From: Shigella phage SSP1
Length of the DNA: 64,000 nucleotides
Reading direction: 5' to 3' (one strand)
Sequence record: KY963424
A program made the translations under genes and the position numbers. Positions within the stretch are counted from its first letter, which is position 1. Every line of letters begins with the position of its first letter. The notes beneath the pieces were generated by a model. It was given only the letters and a program-made list of their open reading frames with translations, was not told where the DNA came from and did not search any database. Positions 54,691 to 64,000 of this stretch are shown piece after piece.

Positions 54691-54719
54691 TTGCTTGAAT
54701 GCTAAATTCTCTGTATAAT
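54691..54719 (+). promoter_or_regulatory. T5-type early promoter (TTGCTT-17-TATAAT)
   Basis: AAAAAATTTGATTGCTTGAATGCTAAATTCTCTGTATAAT + CTATAAATTTGAGAGAGG. Confidence 0.65.
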
Positions 54720-54749
54720 ATATCTATAAATTTGAGAGAGGAACCAAAT

Positions 54750-55268
54750 ATGAATGTTGATGAGCTAACACAGCACCTCTTATCTAGAGGATTTGATACA
54801 GATAAATATCATTGCTGGTTAAGTCCGGAAGGGTGGCTAACTGTCCCGTTGTATGACTTCTCTGGGATGTTGAGAGGCTATCAGACGTATAATCCTTCTG
54901 CTCCAAAAGGTCATGGTAAGTGCCCCTTTGAAGCTAAATATTTTACTTATTCTACTACACAGTGTGTATGGGGACTAGAAACTCTCAATGGAGATGAAAA
55001 AGTAGTATTGATTGCTGAATCTGTATTTAAGGCAGTTGCATTACATAACGCTGGTTATCCAGCCCTGGCAATGTTGGGTTCTTCTCCAGGAAAAGCGTTA
55101 TTAAAGCAACTGAAATTATTACCTTTTAAATTGGTAGCTGTCGGGGACAACGATCCTGCTGGTGAAAAATTTGCTAGAAAATTGAACGGCTTTGTTTCTC
55201 CCGTAGATGTGGATGAGATGTCTACCGAAAACTTGAAAAATTTTCTTGCTATGAAGCTAAATTTCTAA
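54750..55268 (+). CDS. Toprim-domain protein (primase-like)
   Basis: VVLIAESVFKAVAL (Toprim Glu) and VAVGDNDPAGEKFARKL (DxD) motifs; start MNVDEL with GAGAGAGG RBS. Confidence 0.5.
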   Translation: MNVDELTQHLLSRGFDTDKYHCWLSPEGWLTVPLYDFSGMLRGYQTYNPSAPKGHGKCPFEAKYFTYSTTQCVWGLETLNGDEKVVLIAESVFKAVALHNAGYPALAMLGSSPGKALLKQLKLLPFKLVAVGDNDPAGEKFARKLNGFVSPVDVDEMSTENLKNFLAMKLNF

Positions 55269-55384: not shown

Positions 55385-55462
55385 GGTTCTCAAGCTCATA
55401 TGGTATGAGCACCCGGCTCATAACCGGAAGGTACGTAGGTTCGAATCCTCGGGGAGCCACCA
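55385..55462 (+). tRNA. tRNA with CAT anticodon (Met or Ile2)
   Basis: Acceptor GGTTCTC/GGGAGCC (with G-U pairs), D-stem GCTC/GAGC, anticodon loop CTCATAA, T-loop TTCGAAT with imperfect stem, CCA encoded. Confidence 0.6.
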
Positions 55463-56790: not shown

Positions 56791-56826
56791 CTAATACAGC
56801 ATTGGGCAAGTTCTTTAAAATTTGAC

Positions 56827-56855
56827 TTGCTCAGTGCCTTAAAACTTGATATAAT
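56827..56855 (+). promoter_or_regulatory. T5-type early promoter (TTGCTC-17-TATAAT) upstream of tRNA-Tyr
   Basis: AAAATTTGACTTGCTCAGTGCCTTAAAACTTGATATAAT. Confidence 0.6.
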
Positions 56856-56979: not shown

Positions 56980-57060
56980 GAGGGATTGGCTCAGTGGCGA
57001 CGGCGCCTGGCTGTAGACCGGGTATATCACGCGGAGGTTCGAGTCCTCCATCCCTCACCA
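56980..57060 (+). tRNA. tRNA-Tyr(GTA)
   Basis: Acceptor GAGGGAT/ATCCCTC perfect, anticodon arm CCTGG-CTGTAGA-CCGGG, extended variable region, T-arm GGAGG-TTCGAGT-CCTCC, CCA encoded. Confidence 0.7.
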
Positions 57061-57078
57061 AATTACTAAGGAAGTAAT

Positions 57079-57624
57079 ATGCACAATAAGTTAATAAATG
57101 AGCTTCAAAAAAGACAAATAATAACAAAAACTAAGGAGTTTGATATAACTCCAGATTTAATAGTTGAATGTTCAAAAGTTTACTTAGAATTAAGTAACAC
57201 AAAAGCTAAGAAAGTCTCTTTAGGGGATCTTAGATATAACGTTAAACTATTGTGCTTATCATTAATTAAATTTAAACAGGAAAATAAACTTGCTATAAAA
57301 GAAGGCTTCATATATTTTATAGCAAATAAGGCCTGGCCCAATTATTTTAAGATTGGTATGTCAGCTAACCCAAAGAAACGCTTAGCGAACTATCAAACAT
57401 ATAGCCCCTTTAGGGATTATACAATGCTACACTGGTCTTTCTGGTTTGATAGAAAGGAAGGTGAAAAGTTTGTCCATAGTCTCTATCATGATAGAGATCA
57501 TGAATGGGTTAAGTTGCCTCAAAGAAAACTAAATAAAATATTTGAACAAATTAATAAACTTTCTGGTTTGGAACATTTAGTACAGAAAGTTAATAGAGAA
57601 ATAGTTAATGCACCTATCGTCTAA
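57079..57624 (+). CDS. T5orf172/GIY-YIG-like domain protein (mobile-element-type)
   Basis: GFIYFIANKAWPNYFKIGMSANPKKRLANYQTYSP resembles the T5orf172 (GIY-YIG-related) signature; AT-rich codon usage; stop overlaps tRNA-Glu 5' end. Confidence 0.55.
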   Translation: MHNKLINELQKRQIITKTKEFDITPDLIVECSKVYLELSNTKAKKVSLGDLRYNVKLLCLSLIKFKQENKLAIKEGFIYFIANKAWPNYFKIGMSANPKKRLANYQTYSPFRDYTMLHWSFWFDRKEGEKFVHSLYHDRDHEWVKLPQRKLNKIFEQINKLSGLEHLVQKVNREIVNAPIV

Positions 57625-57684
57625 TGGTTAGGACATCAGGATTTCAATCTGAGAATCGGAGTTCAATTCTCCGTGGGTGTACCA
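57610..57684 (+). tRNA. tRNA-Glu(TTC)
   Basis: Acceptor GCACCTA/TGGGTGT (two G-U), D-stem GTC/GAC, anticodon arm TCAGG-ATTTCAA-TCTGA, T-arm CGGAG-TTCAATT-CTCCG, CCA encoded. Confidence 0.75.
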
Positions 57685-57692
57685 GTTTCTGC

Positions 57693-57769
57693 ATTCCTAG
57701 AGTGTTACTGGACAGCATGTCGGTCTCCAAAACCGTACGGTCTAGGTTCGAGTCCTAGTAGGTTTGCCA
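57693..57769 (+). tRNA. tRNA-Trp(CCA)-like (acceptor stem with two U-U mismatches)
   Basis: Anticodon arm CGGT-CTCCAAA-ACCG, D-stem GTGT/GCAT, T-arm CTAGG-TTCGAGT-CCTAG, CCA encoded; acceptor ATTCCTA/TAGGTTT pairs only 5 of 7. Confidence 0.5.
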
Positions 57770-57775
57770 AAATTT

Positions 57776-57850
57776 GCACCTTTAGCTGAGATGGATTAGC
57801 GCTTGCCTGAAGAGCTTGAGAGGTTCGTTCGATACGAACAGGGTGCACCA
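57776..57850 (+). tRNA. tRNA-Phe(GAA)-like
   Basis: Acceptor GCACCTT/AGGGTGC, D-stem GCTG/TAGC, anticodon loop CTGAAGA (stem has two U-U), T-arm GTTCG-TTCGATA-CGAAC, CCA encoded. Confidence 0.6.
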
Positions 57851-57852
57851 AT

Positions 57853-58140
57853 TTGAATGAGCTGCTGATGCATCCTGAAAACTTCTTTATTTACTGCGCG
57901 GATAAGTCGCTGAAACGTAGAATTAACAAAGTCTATCATTATCGTGCTAGTCAACAGCCTTATGTATATGCTTTTGACGGTGATCACATTCCACTAGAAC
58001 AATTATCTTGTGATTACATGATATTGAAGAACTTTGACGAGACGAAGATCTCAAGCGTTCATAATCGACAGAATCCATTAACGTGGAAATATAAGAAGAA
58101 AAAGAAAGGCATCAAATTCTTAAAAAATGTAGTTGCTTAG
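57853..58140 (+). CDS. Hypothetical protein (95 aa)
   Basis: ORF following tRNA block; 3' end overlaps a promoter; weak evidence. Confidence 0.35.
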   Translation: MNELLMHPENFFIYCADKSLKRRINKVYHYRASQQPYVYAFDGDHIPLEQLSCDYMILKNFDETKISSVHNRQNPLTWKYKKKKKGIKFLKNVVA

Positions 58141-58161
58141 TTTCCAAAAGTTCTGTATAAT
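58133..58161 (+). promoter_or_regulatory. T5-type early promoter (TTGCTT-17-TATAAT)
   Basis: AAAAATGTAGTTGCTTAGTTTCCAAAAGTTCTGTATAAT + ACATAAATTGAACTGGAG. Confidence 0.6.
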
Positions 58162-58190
58162 AATTACATAAATTGAACTGGAGAAGCAAC

Positions 58191-58415
58191 ATGACAGAAC
58201 AAGAATTGAATGAACGTAAGCTGGTAATGCTTCGCTTACTAAATATTTTCTCTGGTATGGACGGTGGAATTGACTTTGTTCATCTACGTTCTTTCGTAGA
58301 AGAAGCCGAAGGCGAATCTATCACTAAAATCCTTAAACACATGGGATTACTTTTAGATGCTGCTAATGTGGCTACTGAATATAAACTAGAAGATCTACCG
58401 AAGCGTGTTAAATGA
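58191..58415 (+). CDS. Hypothetical protein (74 aa)
   Basis: Start MTEQEL with GGAGAAGCAACATG RBS. Confidence 0.45.
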   Translation: MTEQELNERKLVMLRLLNIFSGMDGGIDFVHLRSFVEEAEGESITKILKHMGLLLDAANVATEYKLEDLPKRVK

Positions 58416-58603
58416 GAAAGTTAGTTAAATTTAAGTGTTGTGGTTCTGAACATATTTTCACACATCTTCGTGAATTTAAAATGTGTGATTGTGGTAAATC
58501 AGGCTATGACTCAGGAGATGGGTTCTACACCCGTACTCTAGGGAACTTCAATGATCTAGAATTTGAAGATCTCGAAAAACAAGATAAATCGACCGTTGGC
58601 TGA
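58412..58603 (+). CDS. Small Cys-containing protein (63 aa)
   Basis: Translationally coupled; CCGSEH...CDCGKSG; stop overlaps tRNA-Cys 5' end. Confidence 0.4.
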   Translation: MRKLVKFKCCGSEHIFTHLREFKMCDCGKSGYDSGDGFYTRTLGNFNDLEFEDLEKQDKSTVG

Positions 58604-58665
58604 ATGGCTTAGGCGAAGGATTGCAAATCCTTTTTATGTGAGTTCAAATCTCATGCGGTCGTCCA
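58590..58665 (+). tRNA. tRNA-Cys(GCA)
   Basis: Acceptor CGACCGT/GCGGTCG, anticodon arm AAGGA-TTGCAAA-TCCTT, T-arm GTGAG-TTCAAAT-CTCAT, CCA encoded. Confidence 0.75.
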
Positions 58666-58667
58666 AT

Positions 58668-58808
58668 TTGCTGAAAGAATTGTTAAATCAATTCAGGCAC
58701 GCGTAGGAACACTGTCTCCGCAATTGAAAGATGAGGCACGGTTTGGAGAGGTATGCCGCTACACGCTACGGTGCTAACTCCGTCTAGGTGAAAATCCTAG
58801 TCAGCAAT
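58668..58808 (+). ncRNA. 141-nt tRNA-like structured RNA (perfect 7-bp terminal stem, T-arm-positioned hairpin, long insertion)
   Basis: 5' TTGCTGA pairs perfectly with 3' TCAGCAA; hairpin CTAGG-TGAAAAT-CCTAG immediately precedes the 3' strand; no ORF. Confidence 0.35.
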
Positions 58809-58817
58809 ATAAATTTA

Positions 58818-58900
58818 GGGTCGTTAGCCAAGCGGTTTGGCGGTGGACTGTTAATCCATGTCGAAAGACAACGTAGGTTCGAATCCTACACGGCCCGCCA
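58818..58900 (+). tRNA. tRNA with Asn-type anticodon arm (GTT) but extended 13-nt variable arm
   Basis: Acceptor GGGTCGT/ACGGCCC, D-stem GCC/GGC, anticodon arm GTGGA-CTGTTAA-TCCAT (close to the E. coli tRNA-Asn arm as recalled), variable GTCGAAAGACAAC, T-arm GTAGG-TTCGAAT-CCTAC, CCA encoded. Confidence 0.6.
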
Positions 58901-59002
58901 AATTCTGTGTAGAGTTAAGTAAACCGGTAGCCAACCAGCTATCATTGCTGATATCGAATTCAGCCACAGATACCATTTTCATTAATAACTGAGGAAACAA
59001 GC

Positions 59003-59188
59003 ATGTCCAAGAATGTAATTGCACAGTTAGAAGTTCATCGTGATAGCACTATCAACAATATTGAAGTTGAGAAGAAATACATAGAAGAACTTAAACACGA
59101 TATACTAGTAAGTCTCAATCGTCTTAATGTACGAAAAGAGTTTCTTAAAGAACTTAATGCAGCTATTGAAAAACTCAAAGCTGAGTAA
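59003..59188 (+). CDS. Hypothetical coiled-coil protein (61 aa)
   Basis: GAGGAAACAAGCATG RBS. Confidence 0.45.
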   Translation: MSKNVIAQLEVHRDSTINNIEVEKKYIEELKHDILVSLNRLNVRKEFLKELNAAIEKLKAE

Positions 59189-59195
59189 ATGAATT

Positions 59196-59777
59196 ATGCA
59201 CGGAATATTTTTACCTATTCCTATGTTTGATGAATATCTGGTAAGTCTAGATGGGTTAGTGTTCAGTATTAAATCAAATAAAATACTAACCCCAATAACT
59301 AGTAATTATGGATATGTATCTGTACGCCTACATCATAACGGTAGGCAAAGAAATACTGGTATACATAGAATCATAGCATGTGCCTTTAAAAGGTTACCTA
59401 GTTTAGACTCTGTACTAGAGGTTGATCATATTGATACAGATATCACCTATTGGGGATTAAATAATCTACAAGTCCTTACTAAAGAACAGCATTTAGAAAA
59501 AACCCTGAAAGATAAGGGCTATAATAAACTAATACATAATAAACAGTGTAGTATATGTGGTGAACCTATATCACTGAAAGCAGATAAGTGTCAAAAATGC
59601 TCATCACATAAACTGAAAGATCCATCTATTACTAAAGAAATAATAGAATCTACTGTAAAAGAGTTAGGATGGTCTGGTGCTGGAAGAAGATTATCTTATT
59701 CTGATAACGGGTTAAGAAAACGTTATAAAGCATTAGGTGGTGATCCAAAAGAATTAAAAAAGTTAAAGGTACTATAG
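59196..59777 (+). CDS. HNH homing endonuclease (NUMOD4-like N-terminus + HNH)
   Basis: IHRIIACAF...EVDHIDTDITYWGLNNLQVLTKEQHLEKT HNH core; paralog of 62914..63474 with shared C-terminal SGAGRRLSYSDNGLRKRYKALGG; stop overlaps tRNA-Asp. Confidence 0.7.
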   Translation: MHGIFLPIPMFDEYLVSLDGLVFSIKSNKILTPITSNYGYVSVRLHHNGRQRNTGIHRIIACAFKRLPSLDSVLEVDHIDTDITYWGLNNLQVLTKEQHLEKTLKDKGYNKLIHNKQCSICGEPISLKADKCQKCSSHKLKDPSITKEIIESTVKELGWSGAGRRLSYSDNGLRKRYKALGGDPKELKKLKVL

Positions 59778-59842
59778 TCTAACGGTTAGGATACTCCCCT
59801 GTCACGGGAGAGGTAGGGTTTCGATTACCCTTAGTACCGCCA
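59768..59842 (+). tRNA. tRNA-Asp(GTC)
   Basis: Acceptor GGTACTA/TAGTACC perfect, anticodon arm CTCCC-CTGTCAC-GGGAG, T-arm AGGGT-TTCGATT-ACCCT, CCA encoded. Confidence 0.8.
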
Positions 59843-59868
59843 AACTAAACTAGCACGAGAAATATGCT

Positions 59869-60216
59869 ATGATTAATGCTAAAGAAGAATTGTTACTTGC
59901 CCTAAAGAATATTAATTCTGAAGTTAAGTGTATTAAGATAGAATTCGGTTATTATGGGGACAAAGAAGTTTGGGTATTACCCATAGGTTATACAGAAAAA
60001 GATATTGAAGATTTTCTAAATAATCTAGACTTTAAATATGATTCTGGTTTCGGTGGACAATTGCTTTATGGTAACGTATGGTTTACTGATGGAACTTGGT
60101 TAGAACGTGGTGAATATGATGGTTCTGAATGGTGGGAATATAAGACTACACCGGCAATCCCAGAAGAATGCCGAACAATTAATGGTGAAGTAGATAATAC
60201 TTTACGGTTAAACTAA
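59869..60216 (+). CDS. Hypothetical protein (115 aa)
   Basis: ORF with Trp/Gly-rich C-terminus. Confidence 0.5.
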   Translation: MINAKEELLLALKNINSEVKCIKIEFGYYGDKEVWVLPIGYTEKDIEDFLNNLDFKYDSGFGGQLLYGNVWFTDGTWLERGEYDGSEWWEYKTTPAIPEECRTINGEVDNTLRLN

Positions 60217-60220
60217 TAAA

Positions 60221-60329
60221 ATTTCAGTGCAGAACACGGAGCTAGCAATTCGGAAGTGCTGACTCATGATAAGCTGCCTATGTACTTGCTAAGCGGTCGT
60301 GTCCAAGACTCGGACTCTTGCACTGAAAA
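60221..60329 (+). ncRNA. Structured RNA candidate closed by about 11-bp terminal stem
   Basis: TTTCAGTGCAG (60222-60232) is complementary to CTTGCACTGAAA (60317-60328); internal hairpin GTCC-AAGACTC-GGAC; no ORF. Confidence 0.35.
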
Positions 60330-60338
60330 CAATCAAAC

Positions 60339-60459
60339 ATTCTAGCGTGGTTGATGGAGAAACCAGCTTGGCGAGGGCAGAAGCTCGTTCGATTCGAGTG
60401 AAAGAATGGTTCTCGTAAGTCCGCACAAGTGATAACAGGTTCGAGTCCTGTCTAGAATG
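60339..60459 (+). ncRNA. 121-nt tRNA-like RNA (perfect acceptor stem + canonical T-arm, oversized body)
   Basis: 5' ATTCTAG pairs with 3' CTAGAAT; T-arm ACAGG-TTCGAGT-CCTGT; second internal T-arm-like hairpin GCTCG-TTCGATT-CGAGT; no CCA encoded. Confidence 0.4.
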
Positions 60460-60469
60460 ACACTATAAA

Positions 60470-60592
60470 GTTTACTTATTATGTAGGTTCCGATAGATCG
60501 GCGGGTCTATTCTGGCATTTAAGAGAGGTCTCGCAAACTTCTTTGTCAGCCGTGGGGTTCATAGCCTCCAGGTGGCCTACACAATAAGTAAA
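60470..60592 (+). ncRNA. Structured RNA candidate closed by 14-bp terminal stem
   Basis: ACTTATTATGTAGG (60474-60487) pairs with CCTACACAATAAGT (60576-60589) with one mismatch; internal palindromes; no ORF. Confidence 0.35.
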
Positions 60593-60608
60593 TTTATTAA
60601 AAATTCAT

Positions 60609-60638
60609 TTGCTATTCTGCTTTATTATCTGTATAATA
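60609..60638 (+). promoter_or_regulatory. T5-type early promoter (TTGCTA-18-TATAAT)
   Basis: AAAAATTCATTTGCTATTCTGCTTTATTATCTGTATAAT. Confidence 0.6.
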
Positions 60639-60669
60639 TATTTTATAAAGTGAAGAGAAGGAAAGCTAA

Positions 60670-60867
60670 ATGAAGAAAGTTTTATTACTATCTGTATTCC
60701 TACTTACTGGTTGTTTTAAATTTGACTCAACCATTAATAAAGAGTATGAATTTGCTAAAAATTTCTGTGGCGGAGAGAGTAATATAAAGAATTTCTACAT
60801 ATATAGTACAATTCCTAGTACCGTTTATTGTGTAGACGGACGAATTATTAATATTCCTCCACAATAA
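60670..60867 (+). CDS. Small lipoprotein (65 aa)
   Basis: MKKVLLLSVFLLTGC lipoprotein signal peptide with lipobox LTGC; GAGAAGGAAAGCTAAATG RBS. Confidence 0.55.
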   Translation: MKKVLLLSVFLLTGCFKFDSTINKEYEFAKNFCGGESNIKNFYIYSTIPSTVYCVDGRIINIPPQ

Positions 60868-60876
60868 AAGAATTAA

Positions 60877-60952
60877 CAGTGCGTAGCGCAGTTGGTAGCG
60901 TGGGAGCCTTGGATGCTTCGGGTCGCAGGTTCGAGTCCTGCCGCACTGACCA
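60877..60952 (+). tRNA. tRNA-Pro(TGG)
   Basis: Acceptor CAGTGCG/CGCACTG perfect, D-stem GCGC/GCGT, anticodon arm GGAGC-CTTGGAT-GCTTC, T-arm GCAGG-TTCGAGT-CCTGC, CCA encoded. Confidence 0.8.
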
Positions 60953-60958
60953 AACAAT

Positions 60959-61036
60959 TGCGGGTTAGATCTCTGGTAGAGATCACTAGTCTCATAAGCT
61001 AGAAAGAGGTAGGTTCGATTCCTGCACCCGCTTCCA
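60959..61036 (+). tRNA. tRNA with CAT anticodon (second Met/Ile2-type), unpaired 1-72
   Basis: D-stem GATC/GATC, anticodon arm CTAGT-CTCATAA-GCTAG, T-arm GTAGG-TTCGATT-CCTGC, CCA encoded; acceptor TGCGGGT/ACCCGCT with T-T at 1-72. Confidence 0.6.
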
Positions 61037-61056
61037 TTTTAATAGAGGATTTCGAA

Positions 61057-61224
61057 ATGAAAGTATTTCGATTAGTAGTAAGTGACAAACGTTCAGGTAA
61101 AAATACCTCAAAATCCTTACTCGCTCATTATGGTAAAAATTGGGATGAAGTAATGTCAGAGTTTAATACTAATCACCCTTACTTGAAAGTTCACTCTATT
61201 AAAGAAGTATATAATGGTTACTAA
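61057..61224 (+). CDS. Hypothetical small protein (55 aa)
   Basis: TAGAGGATTTCGAAATG RBS; below ORF-track cut-off. Confidence 0.35.
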   Translation: MKVFRLVVSDKRSGKNTSKSLLAHYGKNWDEVMSEFNTNHPYLKVHSIKEVYNGY

Positions 61225-61225
61225 T

Positions 61226-61304
61226 AGATCGCTAGCTCAATAGGTTTAGTAGCATCCGACTTTTAATCGGAAGGTTCTGGGTTCGAGTCCCAGGCGATCT
61301 ACCA
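61226..61304 (+). tRNA. tRNA-Lys(TTT)
   Basis: Acceptor AGATCGC/GCGATCT perfect, anticodon arm TCCGA-CTTTTAA-TCGGA, T-arm CTGGG-TTCGAGT-CCCAG, CCA encoded. Confidence 0.8.
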
Positions 61305-61323
61305 ATTTCAAGAAAAATGTACT

Positions 61324-61351
61324 TGCTTGATGCTTAATTTCTTGTTATAAT
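61324..61351 (+). promoter_or_regulatory. T5-type early promoter (TTGCTT-16-TATAAT)
   Basis: AAAAATGTACTTGCTTGATGCTTAATTTCTTGTTATAAT + ATATAAATTGATGGGGAG. Confidence 0.55.
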
Positions 61352-62913: not shown

Positions 62914-63474
62914 ATGAAAATAATTCCTGAATTTCCAAACTATAGTATAACTGAGGATGGTAAGGTATGGTCTAAAAATATTAATGCATTTTTATCTCCA
63001 TATGTTAATAACTCAGGATACCCATGCTATAAACTCCACAAGAATGGTATTCAGTACACACAGTCTATCCATAGATTACTTGCTAGAGTGTATAAGGGTT
63101 TACCTTCACTAGACTCTGAACTAGAGGTAGATCATAAAGATACCGATCCTTCTAATTATAGTTTAGATAATATACAAGTTCTAAGTAAAGAAGAACACTT
63201 GAAGAAAACCCTTCAAGATAGGAAACAGTTGCCTTATAATACTATTTGCCCACTTTGCTCAGGCTACAAAGATCCTGGTGCTTCTAAGTGTAAGAAATGT
63301 TCTTCTTTATCACAAGTAAAAGATAAATCTGTTACCGTAGAACAGATCGAATACTGGGTTAAAAACTATTCTTGGGTAAGAGCTGGAAAGGAATTAGGTT
63401 ATTCAGATAGTGGATTACGTAAACGTTATAAAGCTCTTACTGGTAAAGACCCTAAACAAATAAAATGCGGTTAG
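62914..63474 (+). CDS. HNH homing endonuclease (NUMOD4-like N-terminus + HNH)
   Basis: EFPNYSITEDGKVWS; IHRLLARVY...EVDHKDTDPSNYSLDNIQVLSKEEHLKKT; paralog of 59196..59777; stop overlaps tRNA-Gly. Confidence 0.7.
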   Translation: MKIIPEFPNYSITEDGKVWSKNINAFLSPYVNNSGYPCYKLHKNGIQYTQSIHRLLARVYKGLPSLDSELEVDHKDTDPSNYSLDNIQVLSKEEHLKKTLQDRKQLPYNTICPLCSGYKDPGASKCKKCSSLSQVKDKSVTVEQIEYWVKNYSWVRAGKELGYSDSGLRKRYKALTGKDPKQIKCG

Positions 63475-63941: not shown

Positions 63942-64000
63942 GCTGGGTTGGCAGAATGGTTGAATGCACCTGATTTGTAATCAGGAGGAGTAATCCCGTT
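63942..64000 (+). tRNA. tRNA, 3'-truncated by window edge (anticodon loop TTTGTAA, Thr-type TGT)
   Basis: D-arm GCA-GAATGGTTGAA-TGC and anticodon arm CCTGA-TTTGTAA-TCAGG visible; T-arm lies beyond window. Confidence 0.4.

What the first reader, a model, noticed from the sequence alone, without database searches (positions are those of the whole stretch)
56980..61304. Phage tRNA-Lys(TTT) and tRNA-Tyr(GTA) as possible anti-defence tRNAs
The cluster encodes tRNA-Lys(TTT) at 61226..61304 and tRNA-Tyr(GTA) at 56980..57060, each just downstream of a strong early promoter. As I recall, recent work on T5 reported phage tRNA-Lys and tRNA-Tyr variants that resist or replace host tRNAs cleaved by anticodon nucleases of defence systems (PARIS and a retron-associated effector). 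If that recollection is right, these two genes are the candidate counter-defence elements in this window; their sequence differences from host tRNAs would be the functional determinant.
Basis: partly seen in the sequence, partly recalled or inferred. Interest (0 to 1): 0.5.

Follow-up and report, generated by a model that had tools for sequence, protein, structure and literature searches.

The report
Phage tRNA-Lys and tRNA-Tyr counter-defence genes
These are two real tRNA genes in the tRNA-rich region of a T5-like phage, a region already shown to let such phages survive bacterial tRNA-cutting defences, but the versions here are not the ones tested in phage T5, so what they protect against is only partly known.

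Summary
Observation confirmed. tRNA-Tyr(GTA) lies at 56980-57060 and tRNA-Lys(TTT) at 61226-61304, inside a cluster of at least 19 tRNA genes in a T5-like phage (about 96% identical to Salmonella phages SP33 and Th1).

The recalled literature is real. T5 tRNA-Lys resists PARIS AriB. T5/SP15 tRNA-Tyr neutralises retron-Eco7 PtuAB. SP15 tRNA-Lys rescues phages from PrrC170.

The alleles here differ from those of T5.
- **tRNA-Lys:** it is the SP15 allele (78/79 nt) and only 71% identical to T5's. Its anticodon arm matches E. coli from position 30 to 40. It keeps U39 and U16, two of the three mapped AriB determinants, and changes only A41 to G. Anti-PrrC activity is well supported. PARIS resistance is not.
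- **tRNA-Tyr:** it is a third, untested allele, 61-63% identical to the T5, SP15 and E. coli genes. It has an unpaired 10-nt variable region instead of the helical arm that PtuAB cuts. Covariation shows it is functional, it carries the bacterial Tyr identity set, and I found the type only in phage or metagenome DNA. It sits about 120 nt downstream of the conserved strong P14a promoter.
- **Promoter claim:** tRNA-Lys is not "just downstream" of a promoter.

Verdict: known biology, new member. The "anticodon-stem-loop differences" idea is largely wrong for both genes.

The parts
56822..56855 (+). Early promoter upstream of tRNA-Tyr, homologous to T5 P14a and the SP15 tRNA-Tyr promoter. It has an extended -10 element, TGATATAAT.
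   Evidence: The alignment with T5 P14a and the SP15 promoter shows one core difference, TGA versus TGG before TATAAT. The SP15 promoter was shown to be strong with an RFP reporter (PMC11555353). The simple consensus scan missed it because its -35 hexamer is weak.
56980..57060 (+). tRNA-Tyr(GUA), 81 nt with encoded CCA. It has a 3-bp D stem, a CUGUAGA anticodon loop (G37) and a 10-nt unpaired variable region, UAUAUCACGC, instead of a helical long arm.
   Evidence: ARAGORN. Rfam 49 bits. Covariation across 6 phage homologues: 100% of cells paired, 12 of 20 pairs with compensatory changes, 0 of 500 shuffles as high. G1-C72, A73 and U35 are present (identity set from PMC9976931).
57079..57624 (+). 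181-aa ORF with a T5orf172/MUG113 (GIY-YIG-like) domain, inserted between tRNA-Tyr and tRNA-Glu. It is probably a mobile-element gene.
   Evidence: Pfam PF10544 at 8.6e-9 and PF13455 at 1.8e-9. The ORF is absent at this position in T5, SP15 and phage 26175I.
58818..58900 (+). tRNA-Asn(GUU), 83 nt, with an unusual long variable arm (GUC-GAAA-GAC). Host tRNA-Asn is a secondary PARIS target.
   Evidence: ARAGORN. Its site at positions 36-41, UAAUCC, is identical to E. coli tRNA-Asn; T5 has UAAGUU. The PARIS relevance comes from PMC12409363.
60609..60637 (+). Promoter-like site homologous to T5 P13a. It is the likely start of the unit ORF, tRNA-Pro, tRNA-fMet, ORF, tRNA-Lys.
   Evidence: TTGCTA-17-TATAAT, 10 of 12 matches. 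It aligns with T5 P13a.
61226..61304 (+). tRNA-Lys(UUU), 79 nt with encoded CCA. This is the SP15-type allele, with an 11-nt D loop and anticodon arm UCCGA-CUUUUAA-UCGGA.
   Evidence: ARAGORN. Rfam 60.9 bits. 78/79 nt identical to SP15, 71% to T5 and 69% to E. coli. 108 phage records match at 99% identity or more, including exact 79/79 matches.
61323..61351 (+). Promoter-like site homologous to T5 P13b. It lies downstream of tRNA-Lys, not upstream.
   Evidence: TTGCTT-17-TATAAT with TG before the -10 element; it aligns with T5 P13b.
63942..64000 (+). 5' part of a tRNA-Thr(UGU), cut off by the window end. Host tRNA-Thr(UGU) is the second prime PARIS target.
   Evidence: The 59 nt are identical to the 87-nt tRNA-Thr(tgt) of phage SP33, which has a long variable arm. 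Its site at positions 36-41, UAAUCA, is identical to E. coli; T5 has UAAGCA.
54699..55268 (+). Toprim-like protein, the homologue of SP15 ORF75 ('Rad', retron anti-defence).
   Evidence: 188 of 189 aa identical to SP15 ORF75. Pfam Toprim_2 at 2.6e-5. SP15 ORF75 rescues phages from retron-Eco2 and retron-Eco7 (PMC11555353).

Best explanation
[quoted passage not shown] Their most likely role is to keep phage translation running when a host defence nuclease destroys the matching host tRNA.

tRNA-Tyr is transcribed early and at a high level from the conserved P14a-type promoter, so it replenishes the Tyr-tRNA pool that PtuAB-type nucleases (retron-Eco7, Septu) deplete by cutting the variable arm of host tRNA-Tyr. 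This allele lacks the helical variable arm, so it may also be a poor substrate for those nucleases. That last step is inferred, not shown.

tRNA-Lys is practically the same molecule as SP15 tRNA-Lys (one base differs, in the acceptor stem). The SP15 tRNA rescues phages from the tRNA-Lys nuclease PrrC170, whereas E. coli tRNA-Lys expressed the same way does so only poorly. Whether it also escapes PARIS AriB is open. It lacks two of the three changes that make T5 tRNA-Lys resistant.

Shown here: gene existence, cloverleaf conservation, allele identities, promoter homology and determinant positions. Shown by others on homologues: rescue phenotypes and cleavage sites. Inferred: that these particular alleles confer protection.
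For: - Real tRNAs.
- The locus is syntenic with the T5 and SP15 TRR.
- The TRR is needed against PARIS and retron-Eco7 (PMC11464382; PMC11555353).
- The tRNA-Tyr promoter is conserved with the experimentally strong SP15 promoter.
- Rescue by tRNA-Tyr depends on dose and promoter (PMC13096335).
- PtuAB cuts U47|C48 in the variable arm, SP15 tRNA-Tyr is not cut, and its variable loop is required for rescue (PMC12673091).
- The window tRNA-Tyr has compensatory changes in all four helices, including a private G2-C71 to A2-U71 double change.
- It carries the bacterial Tyr identity set G1-C72, A73, U35.
- Window tRNA-Lys is 78/79 identical to SP15 tRNA-Lys, which rescues T1 and T7 from PrrC170.
- The window also encodes the anti-retron protein Rad, 188/189 aa identical. 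Anti-defence functions therefore cluster here.
Against: - No experiment exists on these exact alleles for PARIS or PtuAB.
- tRNA-Lys keeps U39 and U16. The U39-to-A change alone abolishes AriB cleavage and U16-to-C impairs it. Its anticodon arm equals the host's from position 30 to 40.
- The window's tRNA-Thr and tRNA-Asn also keep the host-like UAAUC site, whereas all three T5 tRNAs have changed position 39. This phage may therefore be PARIS-sensitive.
- The tRNA-Tyr variable region still contains a U|CA trinucleotide like the E. coli cleavage context.
- Deleting the V-loop of SP15 tRNA-Tyr abolished rescue.
- Septu EcB88 cuts host and T6 tRNA-Tyr alike.
- G37 replaces the usual A37.
- One relative's copy is annotated as a pseudo-tRNA and another carries a repeat expansion in the D arm.
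- The cluster covers nearly all amino acids, more than defence evasion alone would need.
Confidence: 0.65

Rival explanations
1. The tRNAs mainly serve translation economy. They raise the supply of tRNAs for codons that this AT-rich phage uses heavily, or replace host tRNAs lost during host shut-off. Any defence evasion is a side effect.
For: The cluster holds about 20 tRNAs covering nearly all amino acids. In 47 window ORFs, Lys codons make up 70.4 per 1000 and Tyr codons 39.2 per 1000. Both are above E. coli K-12 values as I recall them (about 44 and 28 per 1000; from memory, not computed here). Window GC is 39%.
Against: TRR deletion mutants of T5 and SP15 are viable and plate normally on defence-free hosts, but fail on PARIS and retron hosts. 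The PARIS paper notes that expression of T5 tRNAs does not track codon demand (discussion). The hypothesis does not explain why the alleles differ from host tRNAs in nuclease-relevant architecture, or why several very different alleles occupy one syntenic site.
Confidence: 0.2
2. The window's tRNA-Lys is not an anti-PARIS element. Like host tRNA-Lys it is cut by AriB, so this phage, unlike T5, is restricted by PARIS unless other features protect it.
For: The site at positions 36-41 is UAAUC|G, against UAAUC|A in the host and UAAACC in T5. U39 and U16 are retained. [quoted passage not shown] Some T5 relatives (Bas33, Bas34) are naturally PARIS-sensitive, and the authors could not exclude that Bas34's own tRNA-Asn is cleaved by AriB.
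Against: A41 is changed, and A41-to-C 'substantially inhibits' cleavage. Restoring the E. coli site in T5 tRNA-Lys did not restore cleavage, so distal features matter. The window tRNA has a different, larger D loop (AAUAGGUUUAG) with A17 where AriB is modelled to contact U16-U17.
Confidence: 0.4
3. The allele diversity at these tRNA sites comes from homing-endonuclease-driven gene conversion, with tRNA genes as endonuclease targets, rather than from selection by defence nucleases. On this view the unusual tRNA-Tyr is simply the cassette that travelled with a mobile element.
For: HNH endonuclease ORFs lie at 59196-59777 and 62914-63474, and a T5orf172/GIY-YIG-like ORF sits directly after tRNA-Tyr. 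On the 5' side the leader is conserved with T5 right up to the first base of tRNA-Tyr, where the allele changes. T5 and T6 endonucleases are known to cut within tRNA genes (annotations; PMC13096335).
Against: The window-type tRNA-Tyr also occurs without the adjacent ORF, for example in phage 26175I. It is found in distant phage groups, including an actinobacteriophage. Endonuclease mobility explains spread, not the strong structural conservation or the particular loss of the variable-arm helix. The two explanations are compatible.
Confidence: 0.15
4. The window tRNA-Tyr is a decaying or non-decoding gene: a pseudogene, a decoy or only a processing signal.
For: The phage Es2 copy is annotated tRNA-Pseudo-GTA. 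The S124 copy has a GGCGAC triplication in the D arm and is called tRNA-Arg. It has G37 and an atypical variable region. MFE folding of the single sequence does not give a cloverleaf.
Against: Every helix position pairs in all six homologues, with 12 compensatory pairs. CCA is encoded, the identity elements are intact, and the strong promoter is conserved. About 86 phage records keep the allele.
Confidence: 0.07

Closest known systems
SP15 tRNA-Lys(UUU), which counters the PrrC170 anticodon nuclease (Azam et al. 2024, PMC11555353)
   Same: 78 of 79 nt identical. The only change, G3 to A3, turns a G-U pair into an A-U pair in the acceptor stem. The genomic position is the same, after the T5.065-like ORF.
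   Different: It comes from a different phage isolate. Nothing else is distinguishable at sequence level. The mechanism of PrrC170 escape was not determined in the paper.
T5 tRNA-Lys(UUU), resistant to PARIS AriB (Burman et al. 2024, PMC11464382; Belukhina et al. 2025, PMC12409363)
   Same: Same anticodon, same syntenic slot in the TRR, and the same general idea of a phage copy of a targeted tRNA.
   Different: Only 71% identical. T5 has A39, C41 and C16; the window has U39, G41 and U16. The T5 allele is rare, with 23 phage records at 95% identity or more, against 161 for the window allele.
SP15 and T5 tRNA-Tyr(GUA), which neutralise retron-Eco7 PtuAB (PMC11555353; PMC12673091)
   Same: Same anticodon and the same slot directly downstream of the same strong promoter. 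The leader is conserved with T5; SP15's leader is shorter. Like them, its variable region differs from the host's.
   Different: 61-63% identity only. SP15 evades with a longer helical variable arm and T5 with a larger arm loop. The window allele has no arm helix at all: 10 unpaired nt. It is untested.
T6 tRNA-Tyr and SegB amplification against Septu EcB88 (PMC13096335)
   Same: A phage tRNA-Tyr acts by dosage against a nuclease that cuts the variable arm. A GIY-YIG-type gene lies next to the tRNA.
   Different: T6 raises dose by tandem amplification. Here dose comes from a strong promoter. The adjacent ORF has a T5orf172 domain and is not SegB. No amplification is present in the window.

Membership tests
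AriB(PARIS)-resistant phage tRNA-Lys (T5 type) | U39 replaced (Mut1, U39 to A, abolishes AriB cleavage) | tested here: not met
   The window has U39, and the A31-U39 pair is identical to E. coli.
AriB(PARIS)-resistant phage tRNA-Lys (T5 type) | A41 replaced (Mut2, A41 to C, substantially inhibits cleavage) | tested here: inconclusive
   The window has G41, paired with C29. The position is changed but to a different base, and A41-to-G was not assayed in the paper.
AriB(PARIS)-resistant phage tRNA-Lys (T5 type) | U16 replaced in the D loop (Mut3, U16 to C, impairs cleavage) | tested here: not met
   The window D loop begins A14 A15 U16 A17. U16 is kept and U17 is changed to A.
AriB(PARIS)-resistant phage tRNA-Lys (T5 type) | Not cleaved by AriB in vitro or in vivo | not testable with these tools
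   This needs an AriB cleavage assay on the window tRNA transcript.
SP15-type tRNA-Lys (anti-PrrC170) | Sequence identity with the tested SP15 tRNA-Lys | tested here: met
   78/79 nt; the only difference is in the acceptor stem.
SP15-type tRNA-Lys (anti-PrrC170) | Rescues phage infection from PrrC170 | not testable with these tools
   Shown for the SP15 allele only (PMC11555353).
Phage tRNA-Tyr that neutralises PtuAB (retron-Eco7 / Septu) | Decoding-competent tRNA-Tyr: GUA anticodon, intact stems and bacterial Tyr identity elements | tested here: met
   GUA anticodon, G1-C72, A73 and U35; all 20 stem pairs are conserved with covariation. Aminoacylation itself was not tested.
Phage tRNA-Tyr that neutralises PtuAB (retron-Eco7 / Septu) | High expression from the strong phage tRNA-Tyr promoter | tested here: met
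   The promoter core differs by 1 nt from the SP15 and T5 P14a promoters. Strength was measured only for SP15.
Phage tRNA-Tyr that neutralises PtuAB (retron-Eco7 / Septu) | Variable arm distinct from the host's, so that PtuAB does not cut at U47|C48 | tested here: inconclusive
   The variable region is clearly different: 10 unpaired nt against a 13-nt region with a 3-bp helix. A UCA trinucleotide remains, and cleavage cannot be predicted from sequence.
Phage tRNA-Tyr that neutralises PtuAB (retron-Eco7 / Septu) | Homology to a tested allele (T5, SP15 or KpP_HS106) | tested here: not met
   63% identity to T5 and 61% to SP15. The KpP_HS106 sequence could not be obtained.

The most novel reading that the evidence does not exclude
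The window's tRNA-Tyr may represent a phage-restricted structural class of tRNA-Tyr. This class has given up the helical long variable arm that defines bacterial tRNA-Tyr, specifically to remove the substrate of variable-arm nucleases (PtuAB/Septu), while still being charged by host TyrRS.

A related pattern concerns PARIS. T5 changed position 39 in all three of its PARIS-relevant tRNAs. [quoted passage not shown] That would be a second, architectural route of escape from tRNA-targeting defences.

Metagenomic contigs support an arms race focused on the variable arm. They carry 4-9 tandem tRNA-Tyr genes, several with differing variable regions and one of them of the window type.
Probability: 0.3. 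Interest if true: 0.7.

Novelty: new member of a known kind. Interest (0 to 1): 0.38.

Why it matters
Phage tRNAs as counter-defence is established biology (2024-2026), so the finding as stated adds little.

What matters is that T5, the model on which the determinants were mapped, carries minority alleles:
- The window's tRNA-Lys allele (161 phage records at 95% identity or more, against 23 for T5's) keeps the host-like AriB site.
- Its tRNA-Tyr allele (about 86 records) solves the variable-arm problem in a way nobody has tested.

If these alleles behave differently from T5's, predictions of which T5-like phages escape PARIS, PrrC, retron-Eco7 or Septu must be made allele by allele. That is relevant for choosing therapeutic Salmonella and E. 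coli phages.

Tried and rejected
- **IMG/VR scans.** The exact 3' half of the tRNA-Tyr gave no hit. A degenerate pattern returned only four contigs whose lengths match phages already seen in the GenBank searches, so no new diversity.
- **GTDB scans.** Two scans of the species-representative genomes for the window-type tRNA-Tyr motif found nothing. I read this as "not in cellular genomes", with the caveat that the pattern is strict.
[quoted passage not shown] Its sequence is not in the paper's text or held supplements, and the name is not in the paper library.
- **BASEL phages.** I tried to link the PARIS-sensitive phages Bas33 and Bas34 to tRNA alleles. The number-to-name mapping could not be completed.
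- **Retron-Eco7-sensitive T5-like phages.** HZA24 and HZA33 have no accession numbers in the text.
- **Pseudogene reading.** Considered and rejected for tRNA-Tyr because of the covariation.
- **Promoter scan.** The simple scan does not exceed its shuffled expectation (22 sites found against 28.4 expected). Promoter calls therefore rest on homology to annotated T5 promoters, not on the scan.

Full report
**1. Observation**

ARAGORN finds 18 tRNA genes on the + strand between 55290 and 63538. They include tRNA-Tyr(gta) at 56980-57060 and tRNA-Lys(ttt) at 61226-61304, exactly as stated. Rfam's tRNA model scores them 49.0 and 60.9 bits against a gathering score of 29. Both genes encode their CCA end.

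Rfam adds one more tRNA at 55385-55459. It is the homologue of T5 tRNA-Ile2(CAU). The last 59 bases of the window are the 5' part of a tRNA-Thr(UGU).

The region is about 96% identical to Salmonella phages SP33 and Th1 and matches 599 phage records in all, nearly all of those listed being T5-like (Demerecviridae). Gene order follows the tRNA-rich region (TRR) of T5 and SP15.

**2. Promoters**

The sequence 56822-56855 aligns almost base for base with T5 promoter P14a and with the SP15 tRNA-Tyr promoter. A reporter assay showed the SP15 promoter to be much stronger than the E. coli tyrT and tyrU promoters (PMC11555353).

tRNA-Lys is different. It is the last gene of a unit that starts about 590 nt upstream at the P13a homologue (60609-60637) and runs through an ORF, tRNA-Pro, tRNA-fMet and a second ORF. 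The strong-looking promoter beside it (61323-61351, the P13b homologue) lies downstream.

**3. Literature check**

[quoted passage not shown] T5 tRNA-Lys is not cleaved and rescues a T5 deletion mutant (PMC11464382).
- Follow-up work mapped three determinants. [quoted passage not shown] T5 tRNA-Lys is required but not sufficient (PMC12409363).
- Retron-Eco7 PtuAB depletes tRNA-Tyr. SP15 and T5 tRNA-Tyr rescue infection, and so does E. coli tRNA-Tyr when driven by the phage promoter (PMC11555353).
- The PtuAB cut lies between U47 and C48 of the variable arm. SP15 tRNA-Tyr is not cut, and its variable loop is needed for rescue (PMC12673091).
- Septu EcB88 cuts the same arm in host and T6 tRNA-Tyr, and dosage decides the outcome (PMC13096335).
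- SP15 tRNA-Lys rescues T1 and T7 from PrrC170.

Neither AriB nor PtuAB cuts within the anticodon loop, and PtuAB cuts outside the anticodon arm altogether, so "anticodon nuclease" fits neither well.

**4. tRNA-Lys**

The window gene is 78/79 identical to SP15 tRNA-Lys, 71% to T5's and 69% to E. coli's. 108 phage records match the allele at 99% identity or more, including exact 79/79 matches, and 161 match at 95% or more. The T5 allele has 23 records at 95% or more.

Laid out by tRNA position:

| tRNA-Lys | Anticodon arm | Positions 36-41 | D loop 14-17 |
|---|---|---|---|
| Window | UCCGA-CUUUUAA-UCGGA | UAAUCG | AAUA |
| E. coli | GUUGA-CUUUUAA-UCAAU | UAAUCA | AGUU |
| T5 | CUGGU-CUUUUAA-ACCAU | UAAACC | AACU |

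The window tRNA is identical to the host from position 30 through 40. It keeps U39 and U16 and changes A41 to G and U17 to A. Other phage alleles do change position 39 (cott162 to C, Klebsiella phage SEL21 to G) or carry C41 and C16 (BF23).

On the mapped determinants, the window allele is the most host-like of those I compared. Resistance to AriB therefore cannot be assumed. It cannot be excluded either, because restoring the E. coli site in T5 tRNA-Lys did not restore cleavage and the window D loop is larger and different.

The window's tRNA-Asn and tRNA-Thr show the same pattern. Their sites, UAAUCC and UAAUCA, equal the host's, while T5 has UAAGUU and UAAGCA. Both carry long variable arms, which is unusual for Asn and Thr.

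The well-supported activity of this tRNA-Lys is therefore anti-PrrC, by near-identity with the tested SP15 molecule.

**5. tRNA-Tyr**

The window gene is only 61-63% identical to the T5, SP15 and E. coli genes, although the leader up to its first base is conserved with T5. It has a 3-bp D stem as in class II tRNAs, a CUGUAGA anticodon loop (G37) and a 10-nt variable region, UAUAUCACGC, with no helix.

The variable arms compare as follows:
- E. coli: GUC-AUC-GAC.
- T5: the same stem with a 5-nt loop.
- SP15: a longer helix.

About 86-88 phage records carry the window type. They include Epseptimavirus and Tequintavirus, Klebsiella phage Sugarland, Pectobacterium phage My1, Erwinia phages and Microbacterium phage Count. 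For comparison, 162 records carry the SP15 type at 95% identity or more, and 40 carry the T5 type at 90% or more.

In an alignment of six homologues, every one of the 120 stem cells is a standard pair. Twelve of 20 pairs show compensatory changes, and no shuffle out of 500 reaches that value. Sliding the 3' partners by one to three columns collapses pairing to 40-57%. The window copy has its own compensatory change, G2-C71 to A2-U71.

The bacterial tyrosine identity set (A73, U35, G1-C72; PMC9976931) is intact. The gene is a conserved, decoding-type tRNA and not a pseudogene. This holds despite a "pseudo" annotation in phage Es2 and a GGCGAC triplication in phage S124.

The motif (anticodon loop, TATANNACNC, then the T arm) is absent from representative genomes of 185,579 bacterial and archaeal species. 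It occurs in 19 metagenome loci, many within tRNA clusters on contigs of 146-355 kb.

Whether PtuAB can cut this tRNA is unknown. The helix is gone, but a UCA trinucleotide remains. Deleting the arm from SP15 tRNA-Tyr destroyed its rescuing activity, which may reflect loss of tRNA function in that scaffold.

**6. Mechanism and rivals**

The best-supported reading is supplementation. The phage makes its own tRNA-Tyr at a high level from P14a, and its own tRNA-Lys, so that translation continues when host copies are destroyed. Nuclease resistance is probable for tRNA-Lys against PrrC170, possible for tRNA-Tyr against PtuAB, and doubtful for tRNA-Lys against AriB.

The neighbouring gene 54699-55268 is 188/189 aa identical to SP15 ORF75/Rad, which independently blocks retron-Eco2 and retron-Eco7. 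Any test of tRNA-Tyr must therefore control for Rad.

Codon supply remains a compatible, secondary explanation. The window ORFs use Lys codons at 70 per 1000 and Tyr codons at 39 per 1000.

Homing-endonuclease traffic probably explains how alleles are exchanged. HNH ORFs lie at 59196-59777 and 62914-63474, and a T5orf172 ORF at 57079-57624. That does not explain why this architecture is conserved.

**7. Novelty**

The phenomenon and the tRNA-Lys allele are already known. The tRNA-Tyr allele is annotated in GenBank, but I found no paper that describes its architecture or tests it. I file the finding as a new member of a known kind. A 0.3-probability more novel reading is that the variable-arm-less tRNA-Tyr, and the long-arm Thr and Asn tRNAs, are alternative architectural escapes.

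Noticed in passing
L024:428-1146 (contig OKEV01000018.1, 163,787 bp); also L031:2811-3730, L026:3556-3910, L030:539-898: Metagenome contigs carry 4-9 head-to-tail tRNA-Tyr(GTA) genes separated by a few bases. They carry several different variable regions: an E. coli-like GUC..GAC arm, GAAA-tetraloop arms, longer arms, and the 10-nt window type. This looks like an arsenal of tRNA-Tyr variable-arm variants. Neighbouring ORFs in L024 include TelA and an AAA ATPase; whether the contig is a phage was not established.
   Followed up: partly
window:54699-55268 (+): A Toprim-like protein 188/189 aa identical to SP15 ORF75 ('Rad'), which rescues T5-like phages from retron-Eco2 and retron-Eco7. It is a second, protein-based anti-retron element just upstream of the tRNA cluster.
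   Followed up: yes
window:58818-58900 (+): tRNA-Asn(GUU) of 83 nt with a long variable arm, GUC-GAAA-GAC. The stem has the same sequence as the variable-arm stem of E. coli tRNA-Tyr. The AriB-site positions 36-41 (UAAUCC) are identical to host tRNA-Asn, unlike T5's short-arm tRNA-Asn (UAAGUU). This long-arm allele is the majority form: 267 phage records at 95% identity or more.
   Followed up: partly
window:63942-64000 (+), full gene in L032:9067-9153: A tRNA-Thr(UGU), truncated by the window end, is an 87-nt allele with a long variable arm and a host-identical UAAUCA AriB site. T5 and SP15 have a 75-nt short-arm allele with G39. About 98 phage records carry the long-arm allele.
   Followed up: partly
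window:57079-57624 (+): A 181-aa T5orf172/MUG113-domain (GIY-YIG-like) ORF is inserted between tRNA-Tyr and tRNA-Glu. It is absent from T5, SP15 and phage 26175I at this position and is a possible homing element associated with the tRNA-Tyr cassette.
   Followed up: partly
window:55385-55462 (+): A tRNA found by Rfam (40.3 bits) but not by ARAGORN. It is the homologue of T5 tRNA-Ile2(CAU), with one compensatory A-U to G-C change in the anticodon stem.
   Followed up: yes
window:55966-56042 (+): tRNA-Leu(UAA) of only 77 nt, so it lacks the long variable arm expected of a bacterial tRNA-Leu.
   Followed up: no
L034:30-107 (phage BF23 tRNA-Lys): BF23 tRNA-Lys has the anticodon loop CCUUUAA, with C33 instead of the near-universal U33, next to the bond (U33/U34) that, as I recall, PrrC cuts. 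It also has C41 and C16.
   Followed up: no
L003:321-410 (Salmonella phage S124): The S124 copy of the window-type tRNA-Tyr carries a GGCGAC triplication in the D arm and is annotated tRNA-Arg(GCG). It is probably a disrupted copy.
   Followed up: no
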